Shown in pieces: positions 374 through 27,156 of a stretch of DNA of 64,000 nt. The notes beneath the pieces are model-generated. The model was not told where the DNA came from. It ran no database searches and saw nothing but the letters and a program-made list of their open reading frames with translations. The stretch's first letter is position 1. Each line of letters opens with the position of its first letter. A program made the position numbers and the translations under genes. The stretch lies in the NCBI RefSeq assembly GCF_058153355.1, contig NZ_CM177019.1. One strand, written 5' to 3'.

Positions 374-379
374 TGACAA

Positions 380-6622: not shown

Positions 6623-6629
6623 AACCCTC

Positions 6630-9978: not shown

Positions 9979-10368
9979 TTACAGTAGTGAGGGCTGGTAC
10001 TGGCGGTATTTCAGCCGTCGCATCCGGCGAATGGCCTTGTAAACCGTATTGAAAGTGACACCATAACGGGTGGTCAGTTCGCTGACGTTGCGACCGTTAA
10101 AATCATTCCAGATACGCAAATCCCGAATCAGCGAGTCCAGAACCTGACCGCGTGGAATGTAGACCTGACCGCCGCCCAGATGCTTACAGATAGCCACAAC
10201 AATCTCCAGTGAATGGGCAGGATCAACACCCAGCCGGGACAATTCCCCGCGCAGTAAATCGTTCAGCTCCGCCAGCAGTGCCGGAAAGCGTGACGTATCC
10301 TCGGCGGGATTGTCAAGATGTGCCAGGATGGTGTCATCCTGCAAATCACCAAATAAATCTTCCGTCAT
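9979..10368 (-). CDS. mor: Mu middle operon regulator Mor
   Basis: ORF track 129 aa, MTEDLFGDLQDDTILAHLDNPAEDTSRF... Confidence 0.9.
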   Translation of the reverse strand: MTEDLFGDLQDDTILAHLDNPAEDTSRFPALLAELNDLLRGELSRLGVDPAHSLEIVVAICKHLGGGQVYIPRGQVLDSLIRDLRIWNDFNGRNVSELTTRYGVTFNTVYKAIRRMRRLKYRQYQPSLL

Positions 10369-10916: not shown

Positions 10917-10985
10917 GATCGTACCTCCGGAAAGAGGCGGTGCTGCAACACCGCCTGAATTTACACATCAATCAGAGAGGATTTT

Positions 10986-11252
10986 ATGGAAAATAATGTA
11001 CAACCTTATGATGTTGCAGGTTATGCGATTGCATCAGCACTGGTGCGCCTTCTGGTGAAGAAGGCGATCATCACCGCAGAAGAGGGCCAAGCCATTTTCA
11101 GCTCTTCAGCAGAGATTTTAAAAGATGCGCCTGCAATAAGAACAAGCCGCCGCGAAAACATGCAACTGTCAAAGATCATGGAAGACATTATCAGTTCGTT
11201 AGACCCAGATGCTGACGGATCTCAAAAGCCTCAAACACATGAGCGTCAGTAA
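10986..11252 (+). CDS. Plus-strand hypothetical protein inside the Mu early operon, antisense to the early transcript
   Basis: ORF track 88 aa; ATG preceded by GAGAGG Shine-Dalgarno 7 nt upstream; 3' end overlaps the convergent ORF 11191..11493 by 62 nt. Confidence 0.35.
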   Translation: MENNVQPYDVAGYAIASALVRLLVKKAIITAEEGQAIFSSSAEILKDAPAIRTSRRENMQLSKIMEDIISSLDPDADGSQKPQTHERQ

Positions 11253-11493
11253 CAATATCCTGGTCTGATAACCCCAGCCTGCGGCGGATGTACTCCTCGC
11301 GGGCTGTTTCATTTTGCAGTGCCACTACTGTTTCCAGACGATTCATTTCGCGGTTGATAATGTCACGGACTTCTCTGGCGGTGAGATTATGCTTAATACC
11401 ATATTCAACGATAGCGCGAACACGTTCCAGCATCCCTTTTTCAGCCATGACGTTATCAATATTAAGGGGAGTAAATTTATCTTCATTGTTCAT
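11191..11493 (-). CDS. Mu semi-essential region hypothetical protein
   Basis: ORF track 100 aa; ATGA overlap with the upstream ORF. Confidence 0.5.
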   Translation of the reverse strand: MNNEDKFTPLNIDNVMAEKGMLERVRAIVEYGIKHNLTAREVRDIINREMNRLETVVALQNETAREEYIRRRLGLSDQDIVTDAHVFEAFEIRQHLGLTN

Positions 11494-11813
11494 TTTGCGG
11501 CCCTCAGAATAAATTCAGGATAAAATTTCAGACTCATTTGCCGTAACACATCCAGTGCAGCAACGGCTGCTGATTTATCGTTGCCATCAGCAATAGCGCG
11601 GAGATTTTCAATAATCCAGTGAGGACTCAGTGACTCAGCAACAATACCGAGTCGGTACGCCATGACCTCATCAATTGCACGGTTATAAGACGGGGCGTAT
11701 ACCGCCGCCACAAAGTTACCGATCACATCTTCAGGAAAACCCGCCGCCGTCAACAACGCTGTCAGTTCCTCGGATTTTGTAAATACGCCATTATTCATTC
11801 TGTTCACCTTCAC
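11490..11813 (-). CDS. Mu semi-essential region hypothetical protein
   Basis: ORF track 107 aa. Confidence 0.55.
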   Translation of the reverse strand: MKVNRMNNGVFTKSEELTALLTAAGFPEDVIGNFVAAVYAPSYNRAIDEVMAYRLGIVAESLSPHWIIENLRAIADGNDKSAAVAALDVLRQMSLKFYPEFILRAAK

Positions 11814-11982
11814 AATTCATGCACGCCGTGTCATCGCCCATATCGCAGTGGTTGCATTTCTGCCCGCCACAATGGGGACACTCTTTCAGATATTCAGGGG
11901 ATTCATTACCGCAGGTCGGGCATTCCTGTTTCACCGTGGTGAATTTCCCCAGCCACGAATACGATGTTTCATTGTTTTCCAT
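11791..11982 (-). CDS. Mu semi-essential region small zinc-ribbon protein
   Basis: Track ORF 11791..12054; internal start MENNETSYSW at 11982 has a GGAGG Shine-Dalgarno; CPTCG...CPHCGGQKCNHC...CMNC cysteine clusters. Confidence 0.5.
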   Translation of the reverse strand: MENNETSYSWLGKFTTVKQECPTCGNESPEYLKECPHCGGQKCNHCDMGDDTACMNCEGEQNE

Positions 11983-12520
11983 TGTTTGCCTCCGCCTGCT
12001 CCAGTGCCATAACTGGTGCGTCAGAACAGTCAAGAATGAGATAGCGCAGTACATGGTCGGTGATATTCCATGCGCTTGAGCTGCAAATAAAACGCCCCAG
12101 CCGGATATCGATATAAGCCATCACAAAACGGGGCATTCCCTGTTTGCACATCTCGTCATCCACTTCTGCAACGATGTGAACGGATTCACAGGTCAGTACG
12201 CCTGTCGCAAACTCTTTTGCCAGCGCGGGGATAGTATTACCTTCCACCCAGGGTAATGAGCGACGCCAGTTGCACCACACCGCATCATCAACGGCAGGCT
12301 GCTCAGTTGCGTTTCGTCTTACAGGCGGCGTCGGACGCGGGCGCGGAACGTCATAAAATCCGTTGCATTCGGTGAGCACTCCGGCATCAACCGCATCCCG
12401 CAGGAAATACACCATTGACGAGGGCAGCATCTTCATTTTTTCAGCCAGAACCCCGCAGGTCAGACGCCCGTAAGCCAGTAATAATGTGCTGACCCCATTC
12501 AGAACTTTTGCATCAATCAC
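11969..12520 (-). CDS. Mu semi-essential region hypothetical protein
   Basis: ORF track 183 aa. Confidence 0.55.
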   Translation of the reverse strand: MIDAKVLNGVSTLLLAYGRLTCGVLAEKMKMLPSSMVYFLRDAVDAGVLTECNGFYDVPRPRPTPPVRRNATEQPAVDDAVWCNWRRSLPWVEGNTIPALAKEFATGVLTCESVHIVAEVDDEMCKQGMPRFVMAYIDIRLGRFICSSSAWNITDHVLRYLILDCSDAPVMALEQAEANNGKQ

Positions 12521-12523
12521 CGG

Positions 12524-13078
12524 TTATTCCTCCGTCAGTGCCACAAATTCAGAATGTTTAATACGCTGGCATTCGGAGGGAACTGGTCCTTTAACCTCAC
12601 CGTCCAGAAGGCGCACCTCAAACAAAATGCCGAATCCATCACGGGTGTGGTGCATCTCCCAGAGCGATTTGAAATCCCACATATTGGGTATGACATCAAC
12701 CCCAAGTTCATTGCACAGCCAGCCCGGAAAATCCGGGTATTTACCGAGCTGATTTTCATAGCCCCGGATAAGCTCCGCGTGTTCCCGGCCTGCTGGTGTT
12801 GTCATATCCGGCATCGCTGCCCATAACTGAATATCACCAATAAAAAGTGTCCTTGATTTAATCTCCCATCCTTCCGGTGGTAAACGGTTAAACCAGACAC
12901 GCGTAACCCTCTCAGGCCCTTTGTCACCAGACAAAAACACACCGCTTGCTTTCACTGATTGCTGTAATGACGCAATAATCTCACCACGCTTAACAGAAAC
13001 CTCTTTCAGCCAGCGAATCGTATAACCGTTAGCGGCTGCGTCACTCAGTTTAAAATAAGCACATGCTTTCATTTTCAT
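12524..13078 (-). CDS. Mu semi-essential region hypothetical protein
   Basis: ORF track 184 aa. Confidence 0.55.
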   Translation of the reverse strand: MKMKACAYFKLSDAAANGYTIRWLKEVSVKRGEIIASLQQSVKASGVFLSGDKGPERVTRVWFNRLPPEGWEIKSRTLFIGDIQLWAAMPDMTTPAGREHAELIRGYENQLGKYPDFPGWLCNELGVDVIPNMWDFKSLWEMHHTRDGFGILFEVRLLDGEVKGPVPSECQRIKHSEFVALTEE

Positions 13079-13169
13079 TCTCTCCGGTTCTGATTAAGGC
13101 GCGAGTCGTCCCCTGACGCATCGCGCCATAATTAAACGAATGTGAATTAATTAAATATTAATGGTGGTA

Positions 13170-13694
13170 TTAAATACCGGCTTCCTGTTCAAACGGAATA
13201 ATGGAAAAATCTTCAATTCCCGATTTAACTGTAATTCCGGCAACACCTGCGACCGCTTTCGGTTCCAGTAAAATCGCTTCCTTGTTGATTTCCTGCTTCG
13301 TGCGAATAAAGCGTTGCAGGCCAAGACGCTCCAGCGTTTCCATCACTGCATCCATACCACGAATACTTACTGATGGTGGACGGACCCGCCACGATACATC
13401 ACCGGTGACAAGATTTGCCGTTTTCACTTTGCCGCCGTTTGTCAGTTCGTCGCGGTTCGCTTCACACCATCCCTGAACGCCTTTTGAAAGGGTTTCAATA
13501 TCGGTTTTAATCGGTGCAATCCGGGCTGCAAATTTCTCCGTAATTTCCGCGATGGCATCATTCATTTCCGTTTCCAGACGTGATGCTTCGCGCTGTAAGT
13601 CCCCGATGCGTTTAATATCGGTAATCACCGCATCGCGGTTTTGTGGCACATAAGCCGCTGCGGCACTTTTGATACGTTTTGCTGGTTTAGCCAT
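13170..13694 (-). CDS. gam: Mu Gam, DNA-end-binding host nuclease inhibitor (Ku-like)
   Basis: ORF track 174 aa, MAKPAKRIKSAAAAYVPQNRDAVITDIKRIGDLQREASRLETEMNDAIAEI... Confidence 0.9.
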   Translation of the reverse strand: MAKPAKRIKSAAAAYVPQNRDAVITDIKRIGDLQREASRLETEMNDAIAEITEKFAARIAPIKTDIETLSKGVQGWCEANRDELTNGGKVKTANLVTGDVSWRVRPPSVSIRGMDAVMETLERLGLQRFIRTKQEINKEAILLEPKAVAGVAGITVKSGIEDFSIIPFEQEAGI

Positions 13695-13713
13695 AAATTA
13701 AAGCTCCTGTTAA

Positions 13714-14013
13714 TTAATATCCGCTGTATACAATGCTGGATACAGCTCGATTGCTTAATTCCATCTTTCGGGCAATGACATGAATATCCAGCCCTTCTTT
13801 ATAAAGTTCACGACATAAATATTTGTCGTGTTCACTGATTCGGTATACACACAATGATATTCCGTGCCTTCTGGCATGTGCCCGGAGGGCGGTTGTGGCG
13901 ACTTTCAGTTTTTCCGCCATTTCTTCAACGGTCATTTTCCCGACGTTGGCTTCGATAAATTCCCGGTCTTCGCGTGACCAGCGCTTACGATTACACTTCA
14001 TGTCAGCCACCAT
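13714..14013 (-). CDS. Mu early region hypothetical protein with a putative helix-turn-helix
   Basis: ORF track 99 aa; segment MTVEEMAEKLKVATTALRAHARRHGISL resembles an HTH. Confidence 0.55.
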   Translation of the reverse strand: MVADMKCNRKRWSREDREFIEANVGKMTVEEMAEKLKVATTALRAHARRHGISLCVYRISEHDKYLCRELYKEGLDIHVIARKMELSNRAVSSIVYSGY

Positions 14014-14433
14014 TCAGTACAGCAGAGGCTCGCGCAGTGATGCCGGAATATGCCGCAGCGATAACTGAACCGCTTTCAGGGCAAGCGAGGAATAACAGCA
14101 GCGCGCCCGGCCTTTTGCCATTAACCGGTAATCGCGCCAGATACGCTGCCACATTTCACGGGCTTCAGGGTCTGATGCGCAGATGTATTCCCGGTCCATG
14201 ACGTACTCCCATAAATCCACGTTGAACGCACCGCCAAATGCAATGGCGCGGGATATGCTTTCGCCGCAATAACGCGCACAGATGCTGTAATGGTCGAAAG
14301 CAATCAGGTAAGTCTTTTCACCACAATCATCAACTTTCCGGGCGTAAATAAATCCGCGTAATTCACCACCGTTGTTATTGCGTCCCTGAATTCGGATTAA
14401 TGCCTGAATTTCATTTCGGATTTTGACGTTCAT
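14014..14433 (-). CDS. Mu early region hypothetical protein
   Basis: ORF track 139 aa. Confidence 0.55.
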   Translation of the reverse strand: MNVKIRNEIQALIRIQGRNNNGGELRGFIYARKVDDCGEKTYLIAFDHYSICARYCGESISRAIAFGGAFNVDLWEYVMDREYICASDPEAREMWQRIWRDYRLMAKGRARCCYSSLALKAVQLSLRHIPASLREPLLY

Positions 14434-14453
14434 TGTCAGCGCTCCTTTGCGAA

Positions 14454-14723
14454 TTAATGTTTAACCGCATTCACCGGATGTGGTACTAAATCACATTCAG
14501 CCTCCATACCCACTTTCTTCATAGTGGTCAGCATCTCATCTTTGGCCTTTTTAATAATTTCAGGAGCCATAGTCAGGACGATATTTGCCAGTAAATCATG
14601 AGGCCCGGTATTTTCCGTTGGCGAGATATCTGCAAGACATGCTTTTGCATCCAGAACTTCTCTGCGCCCATTGCAACCTTCACAACTTTCCAGCCATGTA
14701 AACTCAAAGATAACTTTTGCCAT
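14454..14723 (-). CDS. Mu early region hypothetical protein
   Basis: ORF track 89 aa, cysteine-containing (CEGCNGRRE). Confidence 0.5.
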   Translation of the reverse strand: MAKVIFEFTWLESCEGCNGRREVLDAKACLADISPTENTGPHDLLANIVLTMAPEIIKKAKDEMLTTMKKVGMEAECDLVPHPVNAVKH

Positions 14724-14734
14724 TTTGTTTCCCC

Positions 14735-14989
14735 TTATTGATTCTGAATAACTGCGCTGGCTTTTACCTTCGCGCCTTTTACCTGCTTAAAGAAAACCGC
14801 GCTGCACCACGGACAACATGCAAAGGAGTCCCATACTTCATTTTCTGGTGAGCATTGCGTCATAATTTGCTCTTTGCACTTGGGGCAATTAAATGCAGTC
14901 AGAGCCACATTGTTATTCTGTACCCGTTTAACCCATTCAATATATTTTCCAGCTTTAGTACACATCGTTATCTCCAGATAATCTGGCAA
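14735..14989 (-). CDS. Mu early region small zinc-finger-like protein
   Basis: ORF track 84 aa with CPKC and CCPWC motifs. Confidence 0.5.
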
Positions 14990-15195
14990 CCATTAAGACG
15001 GGCCGTCCATACAGAACGGGCCACCCCGGACTTATGCTCCATAATTCTGACCGCGTTTTTTACCAGTTCCACCGGTGGGTAAGTGATTTCAAGAATCGGA
15101 CGCGCCACGCCGAGATATGATTCATTTACATGACTCCCGCGCGCCTGTAACCAGTTCTGCGCATCCGTTGCCATTTTTATATTTCGGGCCATCAT
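14968..15195 (-). CDS. kil: Mu Kil-position protein (first gene after B)
   Basis: ORF track 75 aa immediately downstream of B; assignment by position and size. Confidence 0.5.
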
Positions 15196-15210
15196 AATTT
15201 CTTCTCCTTC

Positions 15211-16149
15211 TTAATTACGCAGCAGCGTTAAAATATCAACGTCCAGGTCTAATTCACGGAAAGCCTGACGCAGATAATCTTCGTTAACACGCTCACCTTT
15301 ACCATGAGCCGTCATGGCGGCAAGGCGAAGCGAATGATTCAGAATGCGAAGCGCACCGGGTTTCTGTGCAATTTGCTGTAACAACTCCAGTTCTTTTTCG
15401 CCGTTAATATGCCAGGCATCCGCAATAGCTTTTACATCGGCTTTTTTGGTTTTATTAATTGCAGTGGGCTTTGCAATACGGGAAAACAGACGGGCAAATT
15501 CAACCGTTCTGTTGCCCCCCGTCATATTTGAATAAACGCGGTGATTGCCCATCAGCACAAGGCCAGTGCGGGTTGATTCCTGTAACAGGCGGAGTTCTTC
15601 CAGAGCTTCAGCACCAAGATGATCAGCTTCGTCGATGATAACCAGCCCCTGTGTACCTTCAAGGCGGCGTCGCAGGGCGCGGGAGAGCGGCCCTTTACGG
15701 CGTGGTGCGTCATTCATTCCCAGCTCAAACGCCAGTTCAGTAAGACATTCCAGAACGCTGGCACAGGATGGCGTAATGGTGATCATCCAGACATTGTTAT
15801 TGGTGCGGCGATATTCACGGGCCGCTTCGGTTTTGCCCACACCAGGATTGCCACATACAACAGCAATACTTTCAGTCAGGCTGGCAAAACGCATACTTGT
15901 CCAGATTTGTTTTACCGTCTGCGTTTCCACAAAGCGGGGCGGTTCCGGTAGTTCTGCGACTGCATGATATTTTTCCAACCAGCGTTGCAGTATTTGTGCA
16001 ACACGTTCGTTATCCCCGTTGTACTTATCATTGATAAAACTACTGATAGTCCCGGTAGAAAGTCCGCTCTCAAGGGCAATTTGTTTAAAGGTGGTTTCTT
16101 CATTTTCTACAAGGGTGCGCAGTCCTGCGCGAATATCTGAAATATTCAT
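15211..16149 (-). CDS. B: Mu transposition ATPase / target DNA activator MuB
   Basis: ORF track 312 aa, MNISDIRAGLRTLVENEETTFKQIALESGLS..., Walker A GNPGVGKTE. Confidence 0.95.
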   Translation of the reverse strand: MNISDIRAGLRTLVENEETTFKQIALESGLSTGTISSFINDKYNGDNERVAQILQRWLEKYHAVAELPEPPRFVETQTVKQIWTSMRFASLTESIAVVCGNPGVGKTEAAREYRRTNNNVWMITITPSCASVLECLTELAFELGMNDAPRRKGPLSRALRRRLEGTQGLVIIDEADHLGAEALEELRLLQESTRTGLVLMGNHRVYSNMTGGNRTVEFARLFSRIAKPTAINKTKKADVKAIADAWHINGEKELELLQQIAQKPGALRILNHSLRLAAMTAHGKGERVNEDYLRQAFRELDLDVDILTLLRN

Positions 16150-16187
16150 CTGAATAACCTCGTAATTAAATTTTGTTAAAACGTTAA

Positions 16188-18179
16188 TTAAATGACTTTT
16201 TTACGTCTGTTCTGTTCCAGAATATCCAGCGAATGATTCAGATATTCATCACGCTCAGTTTCGTATTCATCATCACGCTCCTGATTCTTCACCCGTTCCG
16301 TATTACCGGAAGGCCGGAAAATGCTTACAATTCGTGATTCTGGTGCTTCAGGTTCGGCTATCTGCGGCAGCAGCTCTGCCACTTCCAGTGCATCCATTTG
16401 TTTCTGTGCCTTAATCGCTGCTTTCGTCGCAGATTTCAGTTGTTTCTGGCGGCGGCGATATTCACGGCCTGCCGCAGCATCATTAAACGCAACAGGTGCC
16501 AGACATTCCGCTTCACAGATAAACCGACCGTCCAGGGTGTAGCAATAAACCGTGCTGTGTAACTGCTGTGGATCAAATCTGACCACAACTTTTTTCACTC
16601 CGGCATTCATTAACGCCATGTTGTAATAAACGTTTTTCGCGCCTTTAAGGGAGCCGCCAACTTTAAGCGCGAACTCGCCTTTACGTGAAACGTTCACCGC
16701 CTCGGCAGGCAGTAACAGCATCCGTTTTTGCTCTTCGGTAGGCTTACGCACAATCGTTCTGGCGTATTCACGCTCAAAAACGTCATCAAACGAAAGTTTG
16801 CCCCCGCACATTTCTGTTTCTCGGCCTGTTCTGGCATTGAACATCGCCACACCTTCGGCAAGGGTTTTCAGAAACAGCTCTGCATCAACAGCGCGGTCGC
16901 CATAGTTATCAGGTTTTGCCTGCGGATTAGGCCCCGTATATGCGCCAGCCAGTGCCGGATGTTTATCAACGTATTCCTCAAGGCCACCAACACCGAAAGC
17001 ACGTTCTACAGGTTTTGCCTGGCCCCAGCCTTTACCGGCAACAACGCTTGTCCAGTGCATGGTCGCCCCCATCAGTAAAAACAGCCCCTTTGGATCGTCC
17101 TCTTTCACCTTAAAGCGGTAGCGATTGGGCGCGCCCCCCGTCAGCCATTTATTCGCAGCACCACGGGTGTTATCAATGGTGATGTGAAAATCCTCCGGGA
17201 TGCCGTAGCGTGTCACTACATCCATGAACGAGAGGCGAATTGAATCGATGTTCTCGCTAACATCGCAGCGCCAGCCCAGAATTTTTCGGGTTTTCACATC
17301 CTGCCAGAACCATGTTTTCGGGCGGATCACATCACCGTTAAACCAGCGTACAAAGACGTTATGCAGATAACCGTCGCCGTTGATCCACTGCATGGCGTCC
17401 AGGTGTTCCACAGTTCGTTGCTGTGCCGGTATCAGATGCATCAGTGCATGTTCACCTTCACGGCAGGCAACAACCATTGCCCCGTCCAGTTGCTGAATCC
17501 GGCGAAATGCCGTGGCTCGGGAGGGAATACTCCAGCCATGCTCGCGGGCTGCCAGTTCCAGACGCTCATAACATTTGCGGAAGGCGGGTTTTTCCGGTCG
17601 CAGATAATCTGCAATCAGAAACTGCCAGGCATCCTCGTCAAATTCACTTTTGTGAACATTGCGACGGGATGCTCCACGTCCATCAACAAGTGCAGCCGCC
17701 CAGTCAGGCTTCGCAAACTTCTGTACCTGGTAATACTTGTCCCGCAAAGTGGATGCGCTGACCTGGTAATGCCCTGCAACGGTCGCAAAAGCCGTTTTCG
17801 TTGAAATCCCCTGGTTCAGCATTTCGTCTGCAGCCTGAACCGCAGGCAACCATTTTTCAGCAAGTCTGCGCTGGGAATCGCTGGCGTTATCCCATTTGCT
17901 CCACAGTGCCTCACGATCATAATCATGGGCTTCCAGCGTGGGGCGGGCGATTTCAAAATACCCCTGACTTGTTTCAATCTCTCCTTGTCTCAGCAATAAC
18001 GCCGCTTTCGCTTCAACAGGTAAAGAGTTCGCATTGTATTCAATTGCTTTACCACCTTTGACACCTGCTCTAGTGCGGTTTTGCCATCCTTGCTTTTTAG
18101 CAACATAAATCACACCAGCCGATGTTTTCGGCAAACCAGGAAGATTCGCACACTCTTTCGGTGATACCCAAAGTTCCAT
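16188..18179 (-). CDS. A: Mu transposase MuA
   Basis: Track ORF 666 aa; canonical 663-aa MuA begins at [23 protein letters not shown] (ATG at 18179). Confidence 0.95.
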
Positions 18180-18180
18180 G

Positions 18181-18408
18181 TTATTCACCTGCTTGATATC
18201 GGCTAGGCCAGATTACTTCCGGTTTAGTTTCTAAGGCGTTAGCAATAATCTGCTCACCCTTTGGCCAGTGTCGTTCTAGCGCATTAGCTAATGTAGTTGG
18301 CGCATAACCGAACTGCCGGGAAAGAGCTGATAAAGAGAGCTTTCTTTTCTTAAGTCCCGCAATCACATCCGCTCGATGCCAATCACGGGCCTTTTCGTTG
18401 GAACACAT
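18181..18408 (-). CDS. ner: Mu Ner, early-transcription negative regulator
   Basis: ORF track 75 aa, [36 protein letters not shown]... Confidence 0.9.
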
Positions 18409-18577
18409 TTAAAAACCCTCCTAAGTTTTGTAATCTATAAAGTTAGCAATTTAACTAAGTGTAAAAACTTAGCTAGCTTGCTAAAAAGATAATTACTGAA
18501 AAGCTTTTTGTAAAGTTACTTTTTAGTAAATTTCTTTGATTACTGATTAATGCATTGATAAATAAGGGGTTTAAATT
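18409..18577. promoter_or_regulatory. Mu early operator/promoter region (O1-O3, divergent Pe and Pc, Ner and IHF sites, transposition enhancer)
   Basis: AT-rich divergent intergenic region between c and ner with repeated CTTTT/AAGT-type repressor half-sites. Confidence 0.7.
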
Positions 18578-19168
18578 TTGAAAAGTAACTTTATAGAAAA
18601 AGACGATACTGAAAAGTCAATTTGGTGTTCGCCGCAAGAAATTATGGCTGCTGATGGTATGCCTGGATCTGTTGCTGGTGTTCACTATCGAGCAAATGTT
18701 CAAGGCTGGACGAAGCGAAAAAAGGAAGGTGTCAAGGGGGGGAAAGCTGTTGAATACGATGTGATGTCTATGCCCACCAAAGAACGAGAGCAAGTTATTG
18801 CGCACTTGGGGTTATCCACACCGGATACTGGTGTTCAAGCCAATGAGAAACAGGATTCTTCGGAACTGATAAACAAATTAACCACAACCTTAATCAATAT
18901 GATTGAAGAGCTGGAACCAGATGAAGCACGCAAGGCACTGAAACTTTTAAGTAAAGGGGGGTTGTTGGCGTTAATGCCTCTTGTATTTAATGAACAGAAA
19001 CTTTACAGCTTTATAGGATTTTCACAGCAAAGTATTCAGACGTTGATGATGTTAGATGCATTACCTGAAGAAAAACGCAAAGAGATTTTGTCAAAGTATG
19101 GGATTCATGAACAGGAAAGTGTTGTAGTACCTTCACAGGAACCACAGGAGGTAAAAAAAGCCGTATAA
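18578..19168 (+). CDS. c: Mu repressor c
   Basis: ORF track 196 aa, MKSNFIEKDDTEKSIWCSPQEIMAADGMPGSVAGVHYRANVQGW... Confidence 0.95.
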   Translation: MKSNFIEKDDTEKSIWCSPQEIMAADGMPGSVAGVHYRANVQGWTKRKKEGVKGGKAVEYDVMSMPTKEREQVIAHLGLSTPDTGVQANEKQDSSELINKLTTTLINMIEELEPDEARKALKLLSKGGLLALMPLVFNEQKLYSFIGFSQQSIQTLMMLDALPEEKRKEILSKYGIHEQESVVVPSQEPQEVKKAV

Positions 19169-19319
19169 CAACCATGAACCAGCTAAAACATACTTCACCT
19201 CACATAATCACACATGTAACATACCTAAACGGCATAAGCTGATTTGTGATATGAGTCATTTGGTGACAGCCTGGTTGTTATCGGTTTTGAACGTTTTTTG
19301 AAGCTGTTATTGAAATGAT

Positions 19320-19506
19320 TTGCAGTGTTTTTGTTTTTCGTATTTTGAATGAAACAAAAGCAATTTTTTACTATCTTTCGCGTTTCATTGATTAACGACT
19401 AAAATTTGCGCTACAGGCTTGCAAGCCCCACCAAATCTAATCCCATCAGATCCCGAATAATCCAATGTCCTCCCGGTTTTTTTCGTACTTCAAGTGAATC
19501 AATACA
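19320..19506. repeat. Mu left end (attL) with transposase binding sites L1-L3; terminus at 19506
   Basis: Sequence ...cccggtttttttcgtacttcaagtgaatcaataca is the reverse complement of the canonical Mu left terminus. Confidence 0.85.
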
Positions 19507-19540
19507 CCGGGTATGTCGTTATTCAATAAAGGTGCCTCGT

Positions 19541-20443
19541 ATGCAAATCACCAACATGCATTGCAGTGGACAAACCGTTTCACTTGCCGCGGGGGATTAT
19601 CACGCGACTATCGTGACGGTTGGTGCTGGTCTGGCTGAATTAACTTTTCAGGGTTGTCATTTAGTCATCCCGCACAAACCCGAAGAGATGCCGCTGGCGC
19701 ATCTGGGTAAAGTGCTTATTCCGTGGCCGAACCGGATCGCCAACGGCTGTTACCGCTATCAGGGACAGGAATATCAGTTACCCATTAATGAACATAGTTC
19801 AAAAGCCGCTATTCACGGGCTGCTTGCCTGGCGAGACTGGCAAATTAGCGAATTAACCGCCACCAGCGTTACCCTGACAGCTTTTCTACCGCCCAGTTAC
19901 GGCTATCCGTTTATGCTGGCTTCGCAGGTTGTTTATTCGCTCAATGCTCGCACGGGCCTTTCCGTTGAGATCGCAAGCCAGAATATTGGTACTGTGACCG
20001 CACCTTATGGTGTGGGTATTCATCCTTATTTAACCTGCAACTTAACATCTGTTGATGACTATCTTTTCCAGCTTCCGGCAGAACAGGTTTATGCCGTCGA
20101 TGAGCACGCAAATCCGACAACGCTTCACCACGTTGATGAGCTGAATTTAAATTTCACGCGGGCGACAAAAATAGCCGCGACAAAAATAGACCATACCTTT
20201 AAAACCGCTAATGATCTGTGGGAAATGACCATTACCCATCCACAGCAGGCGCTGTCGGTGAGTCTTTGTTCCGATCAACCCTGGGTGCAGGTTTATAGCG
20301 GCGAAAAATTACAGCGTCAGGGACTGGCAGTTGAACCTATGAGTTGCCCGCCTAACGCCTTTAATTCAGGTATCGACTTATTATTACTGGAACCAGGAAA
20401 AACGCACCGCCTGTTTTTTAATATTCACGGGCAGCACAATTAA
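19541..20443 (+). CDS. yihR: Aldose 1-epimerase family protein (sulfoquinovose mutarotase YihR-like)
   Basis: ORF track 19406..20443; the Mu end at 19506 lies inside that ORF, so the ATG at 19541 with AAAGG Shine-Dalgarno is used; GIHPYL epimerase-type motif; synteny with yihQPO. Confidence 0.8.
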   Translation: MQITNMHCSGQTVSLAAGDYHATIVTVGAGLAELTFQGCHLVIPHKPEEMPLAHLGKVLIPWPNRIANGCYRYQGQEYQLPINEHSSKAAIHGLLAWRDWQISELTATSVTLTAFLPPSYGYPFMLASQVVYSLNARTGLSVEIASQNIGTVTAPYGVGIHPYLTCNLTSVDDYLFQLPAEQVYAVDEHANPTTLHHVDELNLNFTRATKIAATKIDHTFKTANDLWEMTITHPQQALSVSLCSDQPWVQVYSGEKLQRQGLAVEPMSCPPNAFNSGIDLLLLEPGKTHRLFFNIHGQHN

Positions 20444-20503: not shown

Positions 20504-21379
20504 ATGGACTTTTTTACGTTATTTTCGCCAGATGGGGCCATGCTGGAAACAAACGTGGTATGTATCGTTATCGCGTTGATGTTTCTTTATACCTTTGTGG
20601 GGATATGCGCGGGATTTGGTGGCGGTTTAACCACCATGCCACTCGTCACGTTAATGCTCCCCGTAAAAATGGCAACACCACTTTCGGTAATTGTCGGCAC
20701 CGCAACCGCCTTGTACGCCACCTGGCTATCACGCAAAGAAACGGATTGGCGCTCGGCAATGGTGCTGATTATTTTCTCATTTTTGGGAATACCCGTCGGT
20801 TTATATGCGCTGTCATATTTACCCGACCATTTTATGAAAGTGGGCTTAGGTGGATTTCTTATCCTCTACTCCTTTTACAGCATGTTTATTCCTCGCTTGC
20901 CGATTTATGACCGTAACTGGATCGCCGCACCTATCGGCGCAGTAGCTGGCGCATTAGGCGCGGCGTTCTCAACCAACGGGCCGCCGATGGTTATCTACGG
21001 GATGCTGCGTAACTTAGGTCCGGCGGCATTTCGCGGCACTCTGAACGCTTTCTTCACCGCAAACAACATCGCGGTGATCGGCGGGCTGGCGACCAGCGGA
21101 ATTTTGACTGTTTCTATCTTTAAACTGGTGCTGTTTTGTATTCCCACCATGATCCTCGGTTCACTGATTGGACAATATGTGCATAAACGCATTTCGGTCA
21201 AAGTGTTTCGTGTGATGGTCTTTTTATTGTTGATTGCCTCCGGTTCTATGTTGATAAAAGGTGCGTTGGGAATTCCCGCCGCTGCCGCACTTCTGCCTCC
21301 GTTTACCTTGTTAGTTATACTGCAACTGGCATTTGGTAAAAAAGTGGCGGCAATCCGCCGGGCTGAAGAAAGTAAATAA
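20504..21379 (+). CDS. TauE/SafE (DUF81) family anion/sulfite exporter-like membrane protein
   Basis: ORF track 291 aa, multi-TM with duplicated glycine-rich motifs (GICAGFGGGLTTMPL; GAVAGALGAAFSTNGPP). Confidence 0.75.
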   Translation: MDFFTLFSPDGAMLETNVVCIVIALMFLYTFVGICAGFGGGLTTMPLVTLMLPVKMATPLSVIVGTATALYATWLSRKETDWRSAMVLIIFSFLGIPVGLYALSYLPDHFMKVGLGGFLILYSFYSMFIPRLPIYDRNWIAAPIGAVAGALGAAFSTNGPPMVIYGMLRNLGPAAFRGTLNAFFTANNIAVIGGLATSGILTVSIFKLVLFCIPTMILGSLIGQYVHKRISVKVFRVMVFLLLIASGSMLIKGALGIPAAAALLPPFTLLVILQLAFGKKVAAIRRAEESK

Positions 21380-21485: not shown

Positions 21486-23522
21486 ATGGATACGCCACGC
21501 CCACAGTTATTAGATTTTCAATTTCATCAGAATAACGACAGTTTTACTCTACGTTTTCAAGACCGTCTTATTTTAATCCATAGCAAAGATAATCCTTGCT
21601 TATCGATTGGCTCAGGTATAGCGGATATCGATATGTTCCGCGGTAATTTCAGCATTAAAGATAAATTGCAGGAGAAGATTGCGCTCACCGACGCCATCGT
21701 CAGCCAGTCACCGGATGGCTGGTTAATCCATTTCAGCCGTGGTTCTGACATTAGCGCCACGCTGCGTATCTCTGCCGACGATCAGGGCCGTTTATTGCTG
21801 GAACTACAAAACGACAACCATCACCACAACCGCATCTGGCTGCGTCTTGCCGCACAACCAGAGGACCATATCTACGGCTGCGGCGAACAATTCTCCTACT
21901 TTGATCTGCGCGGCAAACCGTTCCCGCTATGGACCAGTGAACAAGGCGTTGGTCGCAACAAACAAACCTATGTCACCTGGCAGGCCGACTGCAAAGAGAA
22001 CGCGGGCGGCGACTATTACTGGACTTTCTTCCCGCAGCCTACTTTTGTCAGCACGCAGAAGTATTACTGCCATGTCGATAACAGCTGCTATATGAACTTC
22101 GACTTCAGTGCTCCGGAATACCATGAACTGGCATTGTGGGAAGACAATGCCACCCTGCGTTTTGAATGTGCGGACACATACATCTCCCTGTTGGAAAAAT
22201 TAACCGCCCTGCTGGGACGTCAGCCAGAACTGCCCGACTGGATTTATGACGGGGTAACGCTAGGTATTCAGGGCGGGACAGATGTATGCCAGAAGAAACT
22301 GGATACCATGCGTAACGCGGGTGTGAAGGTCAACGGCATCTGGGCGCAGGACTGGTCCGGGATCCGCATGACCTCGTTTGGCAAACGTGTGATGTGGAAC
22401 TGGAAGTGGAACAGTGAAAACTACCCACAGTTAGATTCCCGCATCAAGCAATGGAAAGAAGAAGGCGTGCAGTTCCTCGCCTACATCAACCCGTATGTTG
22501 CCAGCGATAAGGACCTCTGCGCCGAGGCGGCTTCACATGGCTATCTGGCAAAAGATGCCTCTGGCGGTGACTATCTGGTGGAATTTGGGGAGTTTTACGG
22601 CGGCGTTGTCGATTTGACCAATCCTGAAGCATATTCCTGGTTCAAAGAAGTCATCAAGAAAAACATGATCGAATTGGGCTGCGGCGGCTGGATGGCAGAT
22701 TTTGGCGAATACTTGCCGACCGATACGTATCTGCATAACGGCGTTAGCGCCGAAATTATGCATAACGCCTGGCCCGCACTGTGGGCGAAATGTAACTACG
22801 AAGCCCTTGAAGAAACGGGCAAGCTTGGCGAGATCCTTTTCTTTATGCGCGCCGGTTCTACCGGTAGCCAGAAATACTCCACCATGATGTGGGCGGGCGA
22901 CCAGAACGTCGACTGGAGTCTGGACGATGGCCTGGCGTCGGTTGTTCCGGCGGCGCTCTCGCTGGCGATGACCGGGCATGGCCTGCATCACAGTGACATT
23001 GGCGGTTACACCACCCTGTTTGAGATGAAGCGCAGCAAAGAGCTGCTGCTGCGCTGGTGCGATTTCAGCGCCTTCACGCCGATGATGCGCACCCACGAAG
23101 GTAACCGTCCTGGCGACAACTGGCAGTTTGACGGCGACGCGGAAACCATCGCCCATTTTGCCCGTATGACCACCGTCTTCACCACCCTGAAACCTTACCT
23201 CAAAGACGCCGTCGCGCTGAATGCGAAGTCCGGCCTGCCGGTTATGCGCCCGCTGTTCCTGCATTACGAAGACGACGCGCAGACCTACACCCTGAAATAT
23301 CAGTACCTGTTAGGCCGCGACATTCTGGTCGCTCCGGTGCATGAACAAGGCCGTAGCGACTGGACGCTCTATCTGCCGGAGGATAACTGGGTCCACGCCT
23401 GGACAGGTGAAGCGTTCCGGGGCGGGGAAGTTACCGTTAATGCGCCCATCGGTAAACCGCCGGTCTTTTATCGCGCCGATAGCGAATGGGCGGCACTGTT
23501 CGCGTCGTTAAAAAGCATCTAA
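21486..23522 (+). CDS. yihQ: Sulfoquinovosidase (GH31 alpha-glucosidase family)
   Basis: ORF track 678 aa; GH31-like sequence; synteny. Confidence 0.9.
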   Translation: MDTPRPQLLDFQFHQNNDSFTLRFQDRLILIHSKDNPCLSIGSGIADIDMFRGNFSIKDKLQEKIALTDAIVSQSPDGWLIHFSRGSDISATLRISADDQGRLLLELQNDNHHHNRIWLRLAAQPEDHIYGCGEQFSYFDLRGKPFPLWTSEQGVGRNKQTYVTWQADCKENAGGDYYWTFFPQPTFVSTQKYYCHVDNSCYMNFDFSAPEYHELALWEDNATLRFECADTYISLLEKLTALLGRQPELPDWIYDGVTLGIQGGTDVCQKKLDTMRNAGVKVNGIWAQDWSGIRMTSFGKRVMWNWKWNSENYPQLDSRIKQWKEEGVQFLAYINPYVASDKDLCAEAASHGYLAKDASGGDYLVEFGEFYGGVVDLTNPEAYSWFKEVIKKNMIELGCGGWMADFGEYLPTDTYLHNGVSAEIMHNAWPALWAKCNYEALEETGKLGEILFFMRAGSTGSQKYSTMMWAGDQNVDWSLDDGLASVVPAALSLAMTGHGLHHSDIGGYTTLFEMKRSKELLLRWCDFSAFTPMMRTHEGNRPGDNWQFDGDAETIAHFARMTTVFTTLKPYLKDAVALNAKSGLPVMRPLFLHYEDDAQTYTLKYQYLLGRDILVAPVHEQGRSDWTLYLPEDNWVHAWTGEAFRGGEVTVNAPIGKPPVFYRADSEWAALFASLKSI

Positions 23523-23567
23523 TCACGTCCGCCCGTGGGGAAACTCACGGGCAAAGGGAGAACAACG

Positions 23568-24953
23568 ATGAGTCACATCACAACGGAAGATCCGGCTACT
23601 TTACGTCTGCCCTTTAAAGAGAAACTCTCTTACGGTATCGGCGATCTGGCCTCTAACATCCTGCTGGATATCGGCACGCTTTATCTTTTGAAGTTTTATA
23701 CCGACGTTCTGGGGCTGCCCGGTACCTATGGCGGCATTATCTTTTTGATTTCGAAGTTCTTTACTGCGTTTACCGATATGGGTACCGGCATCATGCTCGA
23801 TTCCCGACGCAAGATCGGTCCAAAAGGTAAGTTCCGTCCTTTTATTCTGTATGCGTCATTCCCGGTCACCTTACTGGCGATCGCCAACTTTGTCGGCACA
23901 CCGTTTGATGTCACCGGTAAAACGGTGATGGCCACTATCCTGTTTATGCTCTACGGGCTGTTTTTCAGCATGATGAACTGCTCTTATGGCGCAATGGTCC
24001 CCGCTATTACCAAAAACCCCAACGAACGCGCATCACTGGCGGCATGGCGTCAGGGTGGCGCTACATTGGGCCTGCTGCTTTGTACGGTGGGATTCGTGCC
24101 GGTTATGAATCTTATCGAGGGTAATCAGCAACTTGGCTATATCTTCGCCGCCACGCTGTTTTCACTGTTCGGCCTGCTGTTTATGTGGATCTGCTATTCG
24201 GGCGTGAAAGAGCGTTATGTCGAAACGCAACCTGCAAATCCGGCGCAAAAGCCTGGCTTGTTGCAGTCTTTCCGCGCAATTGCGGGTAACCGCCCACTGT
24301 TCATTCTGTGTATTGCCAACCTCTGCACCTTAGGGGCGTTTAACGTCAAGCTCGCCATCCAGGTCTATTACACCCAGTACGTACTTAACGATCCCATCCT
24401 GTTGTCGTATATGGGATTTTTCAGCATGGGCTGTATTTTCATCGGCGTGTTCCTGATGCCTGGCGCAGTCAGACGTTTTGGTAAGAAGAAGGTCTATATC
24501 GGCGGTCTGCTGATCTGGGTGCTGGGCGATCTGCTCAACTATTTCTTCGGCGGCGGCTCGGTTAGCTTTGTGGCGTTCTCCTGCCTGGCATTCTTCGGCT
24601 CGGCGTTTGTTAACAGCCTGAACTGGGCACTGGTTTCTGACACCGTCGAGTACGGCGAGTGGCGCACCGGTGTGCGTTCGGAAGGTACGGTCTACACCGG
24701 CTTCACCTTCTTTCGCAAAGTTTCTCAGGCGCTGGCAGGCTTCTTCCCTGGCTGGATGCTGACGCAAATCGGCTATGTACCAAACGTCGCCCAGGCTGAC
24801 CACACCATTGAAGGGTTGCGCCAGCTGATCTTCATCTACCCAAGCGCACTGGCGGTAGTCACCATTGTTGCGATGGGTTGCTTCTACAGCCTGAACGAGA
24901 AGATGTACGTCCGCATTGTAGAAGAAATAGAAGCCCGTAAACGCACGGCATAA
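23568..24953 (+). CDS. yihP: GPH-family sugar/sulfonate transporter YihP
   Basis: Track ORF 23535..24953; ATG at 23568 with AAGGGAG Shine-Dalgarno; paralogous to the downstream yihO. Confidence 0.85.
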   Translation: MSHITTEDPATLRLPFKEKLSYGIGDLASNILLDIGTLYLLKFYTDVLGLPGTYGGIIFLISKFFTAFTDMGTGIMLDSRRKIGPKGKFRPFILYASFPVTLLAIANFVGTPFDVTGKTVMATILFMLYGLFFSMMNCSYGAMVPAITKNPNERASLAAWRQGGATLGLLLCTVGFVPVMNLIEGNQQLGYIFAATLFSLFGLLFMWICYSGVKERYVETQPANPAQKPGLLQSFRAIAGNRPLFILCIANLCTLGAFNVKLAIQVYYTQYVLNDPILLSYMGFFSMGCIFIGVFLMPGAVRRFGKKKVYIGGLLIWVLGDLLNYFFGGGSVSFVAFSCLAFFGSAFVNSLNWALVSDTVEYGEWRTGVRSEGTVYTGFTFFRKVSQALAGFFPGWMLTQIGYVPNVAQADHTIEGLRQLIFIYPSALAVVTIVAMGCFYSLNEKMYVRIVEEIEARKRTA

Positions 24954-24993
24954 ATAATAAACAACGCCCTGCGGGGCGTTATAAGGAGTGATT

Positions 24994-26397
24994 ATGTCTG
25001 ACCATAATCCACTGACATTAAAACTGAATCTGCGGGAAAAAATCGCTTATGGCATGGGCGACGTCGGTTCGAATTTAATGCTTAGCATCGGCACTCTGTA
25101 TCTCCTCAAATTTTATACCGATGAATTAGGGATGCCTGCTTACTATGGCGGGATTATCTTTCTGGTGGCGAAATTCTTTACCGCGTTTACCGATATGCTC
25201 ACCGGATTTTTACTCGACTCGCGGAAAAATATTGGGCCTAAAGGCAAATTTCGTCCCTTTATTTTATATGCAGCGGTTCCGGCGGCGTTAATTGCAACGC
25301 TCCAGTTTATCGCCACCACTTTTAGTTTGCCGATTAAAACGACGATTGCCACCGCGCTGTTTATGATGTTTGGACTTTCATACAGTCTGATGAACTGCTC
25401 GTATGGCGCGATGATCCCAGCAATTACCAAAAACCCCAATGAGCGCGCGCAGCTTGCGGCTTACCGCCAGGGTGGTGCAACCATAGGGCTATTGATTTGT
25501 ACCGTAGCATTTATTCCATTGCAGTCGCTTTTTTCTGACTCCACTGTCGGTTATGCCTGCGCGGCACTGATGTTCTCCATTGGTGGCTTTATTTTTATGA
25601 TGCTGTGCTACAGAGGCGTCAAAGAGCATTATGTGGACACGACGCCAACCGGACATAAAGCCAGTATTCTCAAATCTTTTTGCGCGATATTTCGTAATCC
25701 GCCATTGCTGGTTTTATGCATTGCTAACCTGTGTACCCTGGCGGCATTTAATATCAAACTGGCAATTCAGGTCTATTACACCCAGTATGTGCTGAATGAT
25801 ATTAATTTATTGTCGTGGATGGGATTCTTCAGTATGGGATGCATCCTCATCGGCGTATTGCTGGTGCCATTAACTGTAAAATATTTTGGTAAAAAACAGG
25901 TTTATTTAGCTGGCATGGTGCTGTGGGCGGTGGGGGATATCCTGAATTATTTCTGGGGCAGTAACTCTTTCACTTTCGTCATGTTCTCTTGTGTCGCCTT
26001 TTTTGGTACGGCCTTTGTAAACAGCCTGAACTGGGCGCTGGTACCGGATACCGTAGATTATGGTGAATGGAAAACAGGTATACGTGCCGAAGGTTCTGTT
26101 TATACCGGTTATACCTTCTTTCGTAAAATTTCAGCCGCACTTGCTGGCTTCTTGCCAGGCATTATGCTGACGCAAATCGGTTATGTTCCCAACATCGCGC
26201 AAAGCGATGCAACATTACAGGGTTTGCGTCAGCTCATTTTTATTTGGCCTTGTGCGCTGGCGATAATTGCTGCATTGACGATGGGATTCTTTTACACGCT
26301 CAATGAAAAACGTTTTGCGATGATTATTGAGGAAGTTAACCAACGCAAAAATAAAGAAATTAAGACAGAAGAAAAAACGGCTTCCGTAACGTTATAA
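24994..26397 (+). CDS. yihO: GPH-family sulfoquinovose transporter YihO
   Basis: Track ORF 24988..26397; ATG at 24994 after AAGGAG. Confidence 0.85.
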   Translation: MSDHNPLTLKLNLREKIAYGMGDVGSNLMLSIGTLYLLKFYTDELGMPAYYGGIIFLVAKFFTAFTDMLTGFLLDSRKNIGPKGKFRPFILYAAVPAALIATLQFIATTFSLPIKTTIATALFMMFGLSYSLMNCSYGAMIPAITKNPNERAQLAAYRQGGATIGLLICTVAFIPLQSLFSDSTVGYACAALMFSIGGFIFMMLCYRGVKEHYVDTTPTGHKASILKSFCAIFRNPPLLVLCIANLCTLAAFNIKLAIQVYYTQYVLNDINLLSWMGFFSMGCILIGVLLVPLTVKYFGKKQVYLAGMVLWAVGDILNYFWGSNSFTFVMFSCVAFFGTAFVNSLNWALVPDTVDYGEWKTGIRAEGSVYTGYTFFRKISAALAGFLPGIMLTQIGYVPNIAQSDATLQGLRQLIFIWPCALAIIAALTMGFFYTLNEKRFAMIIEEVNQRKNKEIKTEEKTASVTL

Positions 26398-26463
26398 AAA
26401 CAATAGCCGCTATGACCATCTACAGGGATGGCGGCCTTCCTACATATAAAAAATGGATTTAAT

Positions 26464-27156
26464 ATGAAAAAGTTAAATGCAATAATTTTATTATCCTCTC
26501 TGACTTCCGCATCGGTATTCGCAGGCGCATACGTCGAAAACAGGGAGGCATATAATCTCGCCTCCGATCAGGGCGAGGTTATGCTACGTGTGGGTTATAA
26601 CTTCGATATGGGCGCGGGTATCATGTTAACCAATACCTACAACTTTCAGCGAGAAGATGAACTAAAACATGGATATAACGAAATCGAAGGTTGGTATCCT
26701 TTATTTAAACCAACCGATAAATTAACCATCCAGCCCGGTGGCTTAATTAATGATAAGAGCGCCGGTTCCGGTGGTGCTGTTTATCTGGATGTTAACTACA
26801 AATTTGCCCCGTGGTTTAACCTGACGGTACGCAACCGTTTTAACCATAATAACTACAGCACAACCGATTTAAACGGTGATCTGGATAATAATGACAGCTA
26901 CGAGATTGGTAACTACTGGAACTTTATTATTACCGATAAGTTCTCATATACCTTTGAACCGCATTATTTTTATAATATTAATGATTTCAACAGCAGCAAT
27001 GGCACCAAGCATCACTGGGAAATCACTAACACCTTCCGTTACCGAATTAATGAGCACTGGCTGCCCTATATTGAATTGCGCTGGTTAGACCGCAACGTCG
27101 AGCCGTACCACCGCGAGCAAAACCAGATCCGTATCGGGACGAAGTATTTCTTCTGA
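26464..27156 (+). CDS. ompL: Outer membrane porin OmpL
   Basis: Track ORF 26428..27156; signal peptide MKKLNAIILLSSLTSASVFA; C-terminal YFF beta-barrel signature. Confidence 0.85.
   Translation: MKKLNAIILLSSLTSASVFAGAYVENREAYNLASDQGEVMLRVGYNFDMGAGIMLTNTYNFQREDELKHGYNEIEGWYPLFKPTDKLTIQPGGLINDKSAGSGGAVYLDVNYKFAPWFNLTVRNRFNHNNYSTTDLNGDLDNNDSYEIGNYWNFIITDKFSYTFEPHYFYNINDFNSSNGTKHHWEITNTFRYRINEHWLPYIELRWLDRNVEPYHREQNQIRIGTKYFF

What the first reader, a model, noticed from the sequence alone, without database searches (positions are those of the whole stretch)
19260..19545. Mu prophage left end lies 34 bp upstream of the yihR start codon
The Mu terminus (...GAATCAATACA) ends at 19506 and the yihR ATG is at 19541, so about 37 kb of phage DNA (most of it outside the window) separates yihR and downstream genes from their native upstream sequence. 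Because Mu inserts almost randomly, this position is strain-specific. It may be polar on yihR, the TauE-like gene and yihQPO, or place them under read-through from the Mu c-side. It also shows the host is a Mu lysogen, which matters for genome stability.
Basis: seen in the sequence. Interest (0 to 1): 0.55.

Follow-up and report, generated by a model that had tools for sequence, protein, structure and literature searches.

The report
Natural Mu-like prophage inserted before yihR
A complete-looking wild relative of the transposable phage Mu sits between two genes of the E. coli sulfoquinovose (plant sulfo-sugar) cluster, with the textbook 5-base duplication at both ends; this is a real but ordinary strain-specific prophage insertion.

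Summary
Window 19506 is base 1 of the Mu left end, host DNA resumes at 19507 (CCGGG...), and the yihR ATG is at 19541.

I found the other end of the element. A public short-read assembly (SRR31441161) is 100.000% identical to the window over 22 kb. A second contig from the same sample reads yihS...CATG-CCGGG-TGAAGCGGCGCACG (Mu right end, then mom, com, gin). A near-isogenic genome (2 mismatches in 14 kb) has the empty site ...CATGCCGGGTATG. The 5-bp target duplication CCGGG is therefore confirmed, and it fits Mu's 5'-CYSRG target consensus.

The element is not lab Mu or a mini-Mu:
- It is about 94% similar to Mu overall.
- 49 of 53 Mu proteins are present full length; gp7, gp12 and gp19 found no match.
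- The repressor carries wild-type R47, not the Q47 of the reference Mu record.

All host coding sequences are intact. The insertion splits a 67-nt yihS-yihR spacer that folds into a strong hairpin. Polarity on yihR and read-through from the repressor gene remain plausible but untested. This is a known kind of element, and interest is low.

The parts
1..19506 (-). Left 19.5 kb of a Mu-like (genus Muvirus) prophage, read on the minus strand. It runs from the left end through c, ner, A, B, the early region, mor, C, lysis genes, terminase, portal, F, G and I, to the start of the major capsid gene T.
   Evidence: Colinear with Mu AF083977 1-19520 at 97.5% identity and 94% coverage. All Mu proteins of this part are found full length except gp7, gp12 and gp19.
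19327..19506 (-). Mu left attachment end (attL). It holds the terminal 5'-TG and the region that carries the transposase binding sites L1-L3 in Mu. The site positions come from established knowledge and were not mapped here.
   Evidence: Two substitutions relative to Mu within Mu 1-180, at Mu 97 and 160 (a third, at 236, lies outside this part). The terminus TGTATTGATTCACTTGAAGTACG is identical.
18578..19168 (+). Mu-type c repressor gene (196 aa, TTG start), transcribed towards the left end and therefore towards yihR.
   Evidence: 98% identical to Mu c, with differences N9D, N10D, Q47R and A86V relative to AF083977. The window has R47. Pfam HTH_Tnp_Mu_1.
18181..18408 (-). ner (early negative regulator).
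   Evidence: 100% identical to Mu Ner.
16188..18179 (-). MuA DDE transposase (663 aa).
   Evidence: 98.9% identical to MuA over its full length. Pfam HTH_Tnp_Mu_1, HTH_Tnp_Mu_2, DDE_2 and Mu-transpos_C.
15211..16149 (-). MuB AAA+ target-capture ATPase (312 aa).
   Evidence: 97.8% identical to MuB. Pfam Phage-MuB_C.
19507..19511 (.). attL-side copy of the 5-bp target-site duplication CCGGG.
   Evidence: The empty site reads CATGCCGGGTATG. The attR junction reads CATGCCGGG|TGAAGCGG. The attL junction reads CAATACA|CCGGGTATG.
19512..19540 (+). Remaining 29 nt of the yihS-yihR spacer. It holds the 3' arm of the spacer hairpin and the yihR ribosome-binding region (AAAGGTG).
   Evidence: Sequence. 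The intact spacer folds at -25 kcal/mol, z = -4.1.
19541..20443 (+). yihR (sulfoquinovose mutarotase / aldose-1-epimerase, 300 aa), intact.
   Evidence: RefSeq annotation of the orthologous site. The exact protein is found in many E. coli assemblies.
20504..21379 (+). TauE/SafE-family membrane protein gene, intact.
   Evidence: Annotation and Pfam PF01925.
21486..27156 (+). yihQ (21486-23522), yihP (23568-24953), yihO (24994-26397) and ompL (26464-27156), all intact and co-directional with yihR.
   Evidence: Gene calls on the 100%-identical contig L016, shifted by +11485. Annotation.

Best explanation
A natural, apparently intact Mu-like transposable prophage (genus Muvirus, roughly 36.7 kb if its G segment is Mu-sized) integrated by MuA-catalysed transposition into the pentamer CCGGG. 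That pentamer lies in the 67-nt spacer between yihS and yihR of the sulfoquinovose cluster of a wild E. coli lineage.

Shown:
- The exact left end in the window.
- The right end next to yihS in the same strain.
- The 5-bp duplication.
- The empty site in near-isogenic strains.
- Full-length transposition, regulatory, head, tail, gin, com and mom genes.

The phage is oriented with its right end next to yihS and its left (c repressor) end next to yihR. No host coding sequence is broken.

Inferred:
- The insertion separates yihR, the TauE-like gene and yihQPO-ompL from any transcription coming from the CsqR-controlled yihU promoter.
- It removes the upstream half of the spacer, where RNA polymerase binding was reported in K-12.
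- It splits a strong spacer hairpin.
- In a lysogen, transcripts of the co-directional c repressor gene could run out of the left end into yihR.

The net effect on expression is unknown. It is probably a modest change in yihR expression rather than loss of the pathway.
For: - Left end and colinearity with Mu.
- Junction split at 19506/19507, and no complete E. coli genome with this junction.
- Contig SRR31441161_60 is 100.000% identical to window 6188-32809.
- Contig SRR31441161_122 carries yihU-yihT-yihS, then CCGGG, then the Mu right end TGAAGCGGCGCACGAAAAACGC with mom, com and gin.
- Empty site in GCA_015332025.1, with 2 mismatches in 14,016 bases to the window's host DNA.
- 49 of 53 Mu proteins are full length without gaps, at 76-100% identity.
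- Overall similarity is 94.2% to Mu and 96.3% to Yersinia phage vB_YpM_23.
- The repressor has R47.
- CCGGG is one of the 8 sequences of Mu's 5'-CYSRG target consensus, which is preferred 7-fold in vivo: PMC7350765.
- Other Mu-like left ends in E. coli genomes abut unrelated genes.
- c is on the same strand as yihR, with no canonical terminator between them.
- The literature describes a yihUTS operon and a CsqR site in the yihU/V spacer (PMC8006165, PMC8249747), and RNA polymerase binding in the yihS/R spacer with independent yihR/yihQ transcription (PMC5816610).
Against: - The roughly 3 kb invertible G segment was not recovered. Both short-read contigs stop at its boundaries and one look-up failed. 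Total length and tail-fibre genes are therefore inferred.
- The right junction comes from a different assembly than the window. It is linked to the window by 100% identity of its sister contig, not by one continuous sequence.
- No expression data exist for this strain.
- A long-range stem followed by a U-rich tract just after c (window 19157-19300) could limit read-through.
- The K-12 promoter data may not transfer, because this lineage has a different spacer (67 nt against 118 nt in other strains) and an extra TauE-like gene.
Confidence: 0.93

Rival explanations
1. It is laboratory phage Mu (for example Mu cts62) or an engineered mini-Mu/Mud element in a laboratory strain.
For: The left end and the repressor are of Mu immunity type. 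Lab strains such as S17-1, ST18 and MFDpir do carry Mu DNA.
Against: - Only 97.5% nucleotide identity to Mu, with substitutions spread over the whole length.
- gp7, gp12 and gp19 found no match; the sequence there is non-Mu.
- The repressor has R47, not the Q47 of the reference record.
- All head, tail, gin, com and mom genes are present and no marker genes were seen.
- The host is a rare wild lineage with a TauE-containing yih cluster.
Confidence: 0.02
2. The junction is an assembly artefact, a chimeric join between a Mu-containing contig and the yih region.
For: Phage ends and repeats are common places for misassembly. The window alone shows only one junction.
Against: - An independent assembly of public reads reproduces the same junction at 100% identity.
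- The reciprocal junction exists, with the exact 5-bp duplication expected from the empty site.
- A chimera would not create a target-site duplication that matches the Mu consensus.
Confidence: 0.01
3. It is a defective or domesticated Mu remnant that can no longer transpose or form particles, so it matters only as an insertion mutation.
For: The G segment, which holds the variable parts of the tail-fibre genes, was not recovered. Intactness of open reading frames does not prove function.
Against: - c, ner, A, B, both ends, and the lysis, head, tail, gin, com and mom genes are all full length at 92-100% protein identity to Mu.
- A near-identical prophage (3 mismatches in 11.5 kb) occurs in a sister strain whose yihS-yihR site is empty. 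This suggests recent mobility or independent lysogenisation.
Confidence: 0.1
4. The insertion is strongly polar and abolishes sulfoquinovose use by silencing yihR, the TauE-like gene, yihQ, yihP, yihO and ompL.
For: - All these genes are co-directional with yihUTS, with short spacers.
- In K-12 they are all induced by sulfoquinovose (PMC12608037), while the only strong CsqR site is in the yihU/V spacer (PMC8249747). That fits read-through from the yihU promoter.
- 36.7 kb of phage DNA now intervenes.
Against: - K-12 work reports RNA polymerase binding in the yihS/R spacer, predicted promoters for yihQ, and independent transcription of yihR and yihQ (PMC5816610).
- yihUTS is described as its own operon (PMC8006165).
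- The c gene may supply outward transcription.
Confidence: 0.25

Closest known systems
Escherichia phage Mu (AF083977 / NC_000929), genus Muvirus
   Same: - Identical gene order.
- Identical terminal sequences at both ends.
- Mu-type c repressor (98% identity) and Ner (100%).
- MuA 98.9% and MuB 97.8% identical.
- 5-bp target duplication at a CYSRG site.
- gin-com-mom at the right end.
   Different: - 94.2% overall similarity, that is 96.7% aligned at 97.4% identity.
- gp7, gp12 and gp19 found no match; the non-Mu ORFs in that region belong to PHROG families of unknown function.
- The repressor has R47 where the reference record has Q47.
Yersinia phages vB_YpM_23 / vB_YpM_3 (MT374856, MT374852), Mu-like phages isolated on Y. 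pestis EV76
   Same: These are the closest sequenced relatives, with 98.5% aligned at 97.8% identity, or 96.3% similarity. They share the non-Mu early genes at composite 6419-6971 and 7719-8010.
   Different: They differ at composite 4804-5058 and 8318-8536. They are free phage isolates, not a prophage at this site.
Natural Mu-like prophages in other E. coli and Shigella (SfMu, D108, and prophages in about 36 of 5,426 complete E. coli genomes)
   Same: Same family and the same random-insertion lifestyle. Each sits next to different host genes (SfMu: PMC4406740).
   Different: None is more than 98% identical over most of the left half, and none sits at yihS/yihR. SfMu and D108 have a different immunity region; their matches start only at query base 1508-1519.

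Membership tests
Transposable phage Mu / genus Muvirus prophage | Defined termini: left end 5'-TGTATTGATTCAC..., right end ...GCGCCGCTTCA-3' (5'-TG...CA-3'). | tested here: met
   The left end in the window is identical to Mu base 1 onwards. The right end TGAAGCGGCGCACGAAAAACGCGAAAGCG (reverse complement) is in the sister contig L030. The last 78 bases are identical to Mu.
Transposable phage Mu / genus Muvirus prophage | 5-bp target-site duplication flanking the element. | tested here: met
   CCGGG is present at both junctions and once in the empty site. It fits the 5'-CYSRG consensus (PMC7350765). The right junction comes from assembly SRR31441161, whose other contig is 100% identical to the window.
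Transposable phage Mu / genus Muvirus prophage | MuA DDE transposase and MuB AAA+ ATPase next to a c repressor / ner switch at the left end. | tested here: met
   Full-length A (98.9%), B (97.8%), c (98.0%) and ner (100%). Pfam DDE_2, Mu-transpos_C and Phage-MuB_C.
Transposable phage Mu / genus Muvirus prophage | Complete Mu-type lysis, head and contractile-tail modules. | tested here: met
   Every Mu structural protein from lys to gp48, plus the constant N-terminal part of S, is found full length.
Transposable phage Mu / genus Muvirus prophage | Invertible G segment with alternative tail-fibre genes, and the Gin invertase. | tested here: inconclusive
   gin is present at 99% identity and the constant part of S is present. 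Both contigs stop at the expected G boundaries, but the G segment itself was not recovered. A 34-bp inverted repeat would break a k=31 graph regardless of inversion, so Gin activity cannot be inferred.
Transposable phage Mu / genus Muvirus prophage | Com/Mom DNA-modification module at the right end. | tested here: met
   com 100% and mom 99.6% identical, full length.
Same species as phage Mu (Muvirus mu), taking 95% genome similarity as the limit | At least 95% nucleotide similarity over the whole genome. | tested here: inconclusive
   94.2% over the recovered 33.7 kb, without the G segment. This is borderline. The 95% limit is from established practice and was not checked here.
Laboratory Mu cts62 / engineered mini-Mu | Sequence essentially identical to lab Mu, the cts62 repressor allele (R47Q), or deletion of phage genes with marker or lac cargo. 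| tested here: not met
   2.5% divergence throughout, a repressor with R47, no deletions and no cargo. The assignment of R47Q to cts62 is from memory of the literature. The tool result only shows Q in AF083977 and R in the window.

The most novel reading that the evidence does not exclude
The prophage acts as a regulatory rewiring element. In the lysogen the constitutive c-repressor transcript reads out of the left end, since no canonical terminator lies in the 338 nt before the end. It would then drive yihR, the TauE-like gene, yihQPO and ompL independently of CsqR and sulfoquinovose, while the loss of the spacer hairpin changes how the yihUTS message ends. Phage lysogeny would thus uncouple uptake and hydrolysis genes from the core sulfoglycolysis genes.
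Probability: 0.1. Interest if true: 0.3.

Novelty: new member of a known kind. Interest (0 to 1): 0.15.

Why it matters
It matters mainly for annotation and strain biology.
- It marks this isolate as a lysogen of a wild, probably active transposable phage, which can cause insertions, deletions and inversions on induction.
- It flags a possible change in expression of part of the sulfoquinovose cluster.
- It adds one more natural Mu relative at a documented insertion site, with the matching empty site in a sister strain.

It does not reveal a new mechanism.

Tried and rejected
- **Predicted right junction in the species-representative genome collection.** The scan for GGCTACATGCCGGGTGAAGCGG gave one hit, in a contig of a Campylobacter metagenome bin. 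Reading it showed a chance 22-mer match: neither flank resembles yihS or Mu. The pattern itself later proved correct.
- **Both junctions in the viral contig collection.** No match.
- **Exact-protein look-ups with YihR and YihS.** These alleles are too common (283 and 2,527 blocks). Only long contigs with the uninterrupted site were returned.
- **What worked.** Rare alleles did the job. MuA and YihQ of the window located the identical contig and the sister strains. I then picked the lineage-specific YihT allele by comparing loci, and that led to the right-end contig.
- **G segment.** A look-up with the U protein of a related prophage (CP065624.1) did not return this sample.
- **Promoters.** The consensus scan found no convincing promoter in the spacer or at the new junction. 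The location of a yihR promoter therefore remains unknown.
- **Read-through literature.** A search on transcription out of the Mu left end gave nothing usable.
- **Non-Mu early genes.** They match only PHROG families of unknown function.

Full report
**1. The observation**

The sequence at 19260-19545 is as described.
- The reverse complement of window 19107-19506 aligns with bases 1-400 of phage Mu (AF083977) with three substitutions. It starts at the terminal TGTATTGATTCAC.
- A 600-base query centred on the junction was searched against 5,426 complete E. coli genomes. The matches fall into two classes that meet exactly at 19506/19507: Mu-like left ends, and yihR. No genome covers both halves.
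- In an uninterrupted genome (strain Z0117EC0005) the yihS stop codon, the pentamer ccggg and the yihR ATG lie within a 67-nt spacer. The window resumes at that ccggg, which puts the yihR ATG at 19541, 34 nt from the phage end.

**2. What lies to the left**

Window 1-19506 is colinear with Mu 1-19520 at 97.5% identity and 94% coverage. About 53% of a Mu-sized genome is therefore inside the window, not a minority.

The genes are:
- c (18578-19168, plus strand)
- ner
- A (16188-18179)
- B (15211-16149)
- the early region, mor, C, lysis, terminase, portal, F, G, I, and the start of T

**3. Finding the rest of the element**

The junction is absent from complete E. coli genomes and from the viral contig collection. 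A scan of representative genomes for the predicted right junction gave only a chance 22-mer hit in a Campylobacter bin.

Exact-protein look-ups succeeded once I used rare alleles.
- The window's MuA occurs on a single public contig, SRR31441161_60 (45,261 bp). Together with the YihQ look-up, this contig is 100.000% identical to window 6188-32809.
- That contig carries 31,958 bp of phage and ends at the position of the G-segment boundary in Mu.
- The YihQ allele also led to GCA_015332025.1. Its host DNA differs from the window by 2 bases in 14,016, and its yihS-yihR spacer is uninterrupted.
- I compared that genome's proteins with 19 other loci and chose its YihT allele as lineage-specific. Looking it up returned SRR31441161_122, which carries yihU-yihT-yihS followed by mom, com and gin on the opposite strand.

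**4. The three sequences**

| Site | Sequence |
|---|---|
| Empty site | ...GGCTACATG CCGGG TATGTCG... |
| Right junction | ...GGCTACATG CCGGG / TGAAGCGGCGCACGAAAAACGC... |
| Left junction (window) | ...GAATCAATACA / CCGGG TATGTCG... |

This is a 5-bp target-site duplication, the signature of Mu transposition. CCGGG is one of the eight sequences of the 5'-CYSRG consensus, which Mu prefers about 7-fold in vivo (PMC7350765). An assembly artefact is excluded.

**5. What kind of Mu**

I built a composite from the window and the two contigs (31,958 + 1,699 bp).
- It contains 49 of 53 Mu proteins full length and without gaps, at 76-100% identity.
- gp7, gp12 and gp19 gave no match; the non-Mu ORFs in that part of the early region fall in PHROG families of unknown function.
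- U lies in the G segment, which was not recovered.
- Similarity is 94.2% to Mu and 96.3% to Yersinia phage vB_YpM_23.
- The repressor differs from the reference at four residues. It has R47 where the reference record has Q47, which I recall as the cts62 change.

This is therefore a natural Muvirus prophage of Mu immunity type, not lab Mu, not a cts allele and not a mini-Mu.

About 36 of 5,426 complete E. coli genomes hold a similar prophage. Each sits next to different genes, and none is more than 98% identical over most of the left half.

**6. Consequences for the host genes (inference)**

No coding sequence is broken. The phage's right end faces yihS and its c end faces yihR.

The intact spacer folds into a strong hairpin (-25 kcal/mol, z = -4.1). 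The insertion separates its two arms.

What the K-12 literature says:
- yihUTS is one operon, repressed by CsqR at the yihU/V spacer (PMC8006165, PMC8249747).
- RNA polymerase binds in the yihS/R spacer, and yihR and yihQ are transcribed independently (PMC5816610).
- All genes of the long cassette are induced on sulfoquinovose (PMC12608037).

The insertion could therefore remove part of a yihR promoter and block any read-through from the yihU promoter.

In the other direction, the c gene is co-directional with yihR. The scan found no canonical terminator in the 372 nt between its stop codon and the yihR ATG. A long-range stem followed by a U-rich tract does exist just after c.

Which effect dominates cannot be decided from sequence. 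YihR supplies the beta-anomer that YihS prefers (PMC8006165), so reduced expression would probably slow the pathway rather than abolish it.

**7. Verdict**

The finding is real, and its structural interpretation is right after three corrections:
- the element is a natural Mu relative, not Mu itself;
- more than half of it is inside the window;
- the repressor is not a cts allele.

This is a well-understood kind of element at a new, strain-specific site. Interest is low.

Noticed in passing
L015 7994-8040 (empty site); 3' arm = window 19507-19525: The uninterrupted yihS-yihR spacer folds into a strong extended hairpin (-25 kcal/mol, z = -4.1). It may end or stabilise the yihUTS message. The Mu target pentamer lies near its apex, so the insertion separates the two arms.
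   Followed up: partly
L014, L017, L031 (sample SRR28786219): A sister strain has host DNA with 2 mismatches in 13.3 kb to the window and a near-identical Mu-like prophage (3 mismatches in 11.5 kb). Its yihS-yihR site is empty; contigs _117 and _119 overlap by 30 bases across yihS. The phage therefore sits elsewhere in that strain. Its MuA is not identical to the window's.
   Followed up: partly
window 27337-32778: A six-gene block lies downstream of ompL: a 282-aa unknown protein, an ATP-grasp protein, a sulfatase-family protein, a radical-SAM protein, a 285-aa unknown protein and a HAD-type phosphatase. It is present in this lineage and some other strains. Other strains have an MFS transporter, an AP-endonuclease-fold protein and a GntR regulator there instead.
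   Followed up: no
window 20504-21379 and the yihS-yihR spacer; loci L018-L027: The yih cluster is polymorphic among E. coli. The TauE-like gene between yihR and yihQ is absent in some strains (L020, L025). The yihS-yihR spacer comes in 67-nt and 118-nt versions.
   Followed up: no
window 11496-14703 (Mu coordinates 4804-8010 of the composite): Three segments of the early region (composite 4804-5058, 6419-6971, 7719-8010) have no counterpart in Mu. Two of them are shared with Yersinia phage vB_YpM_23. The encoded small proteins match only PHROG families of unknown function.
   Followed up: partly
window 19406-20443: The yihR reading frame stays open upstream across the junction into the Mu left end, up to a TTG at 19406. 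Nothing suggests that this extension is translated.
   Followed up: no
L003 11170-11191: The 22-base predicted right-junction sequence occurs by chance in a contig of a Campylobacter metagenome bin (CALKQT010000097.1). The flanks are unrelated to yihS or Mu. Short junction patterns can give false hits in very large collections.
   Followed up: yes
L032 (GCA_016026375.1, CP065624.1 1136812-1157951): A complete E. coli chromosome carries a related Mu-like prophage with an identical baseplate protein P. It is inserted next to ygbA/mutS and has a full G segment, gin, com and mom.
   Followed up: no
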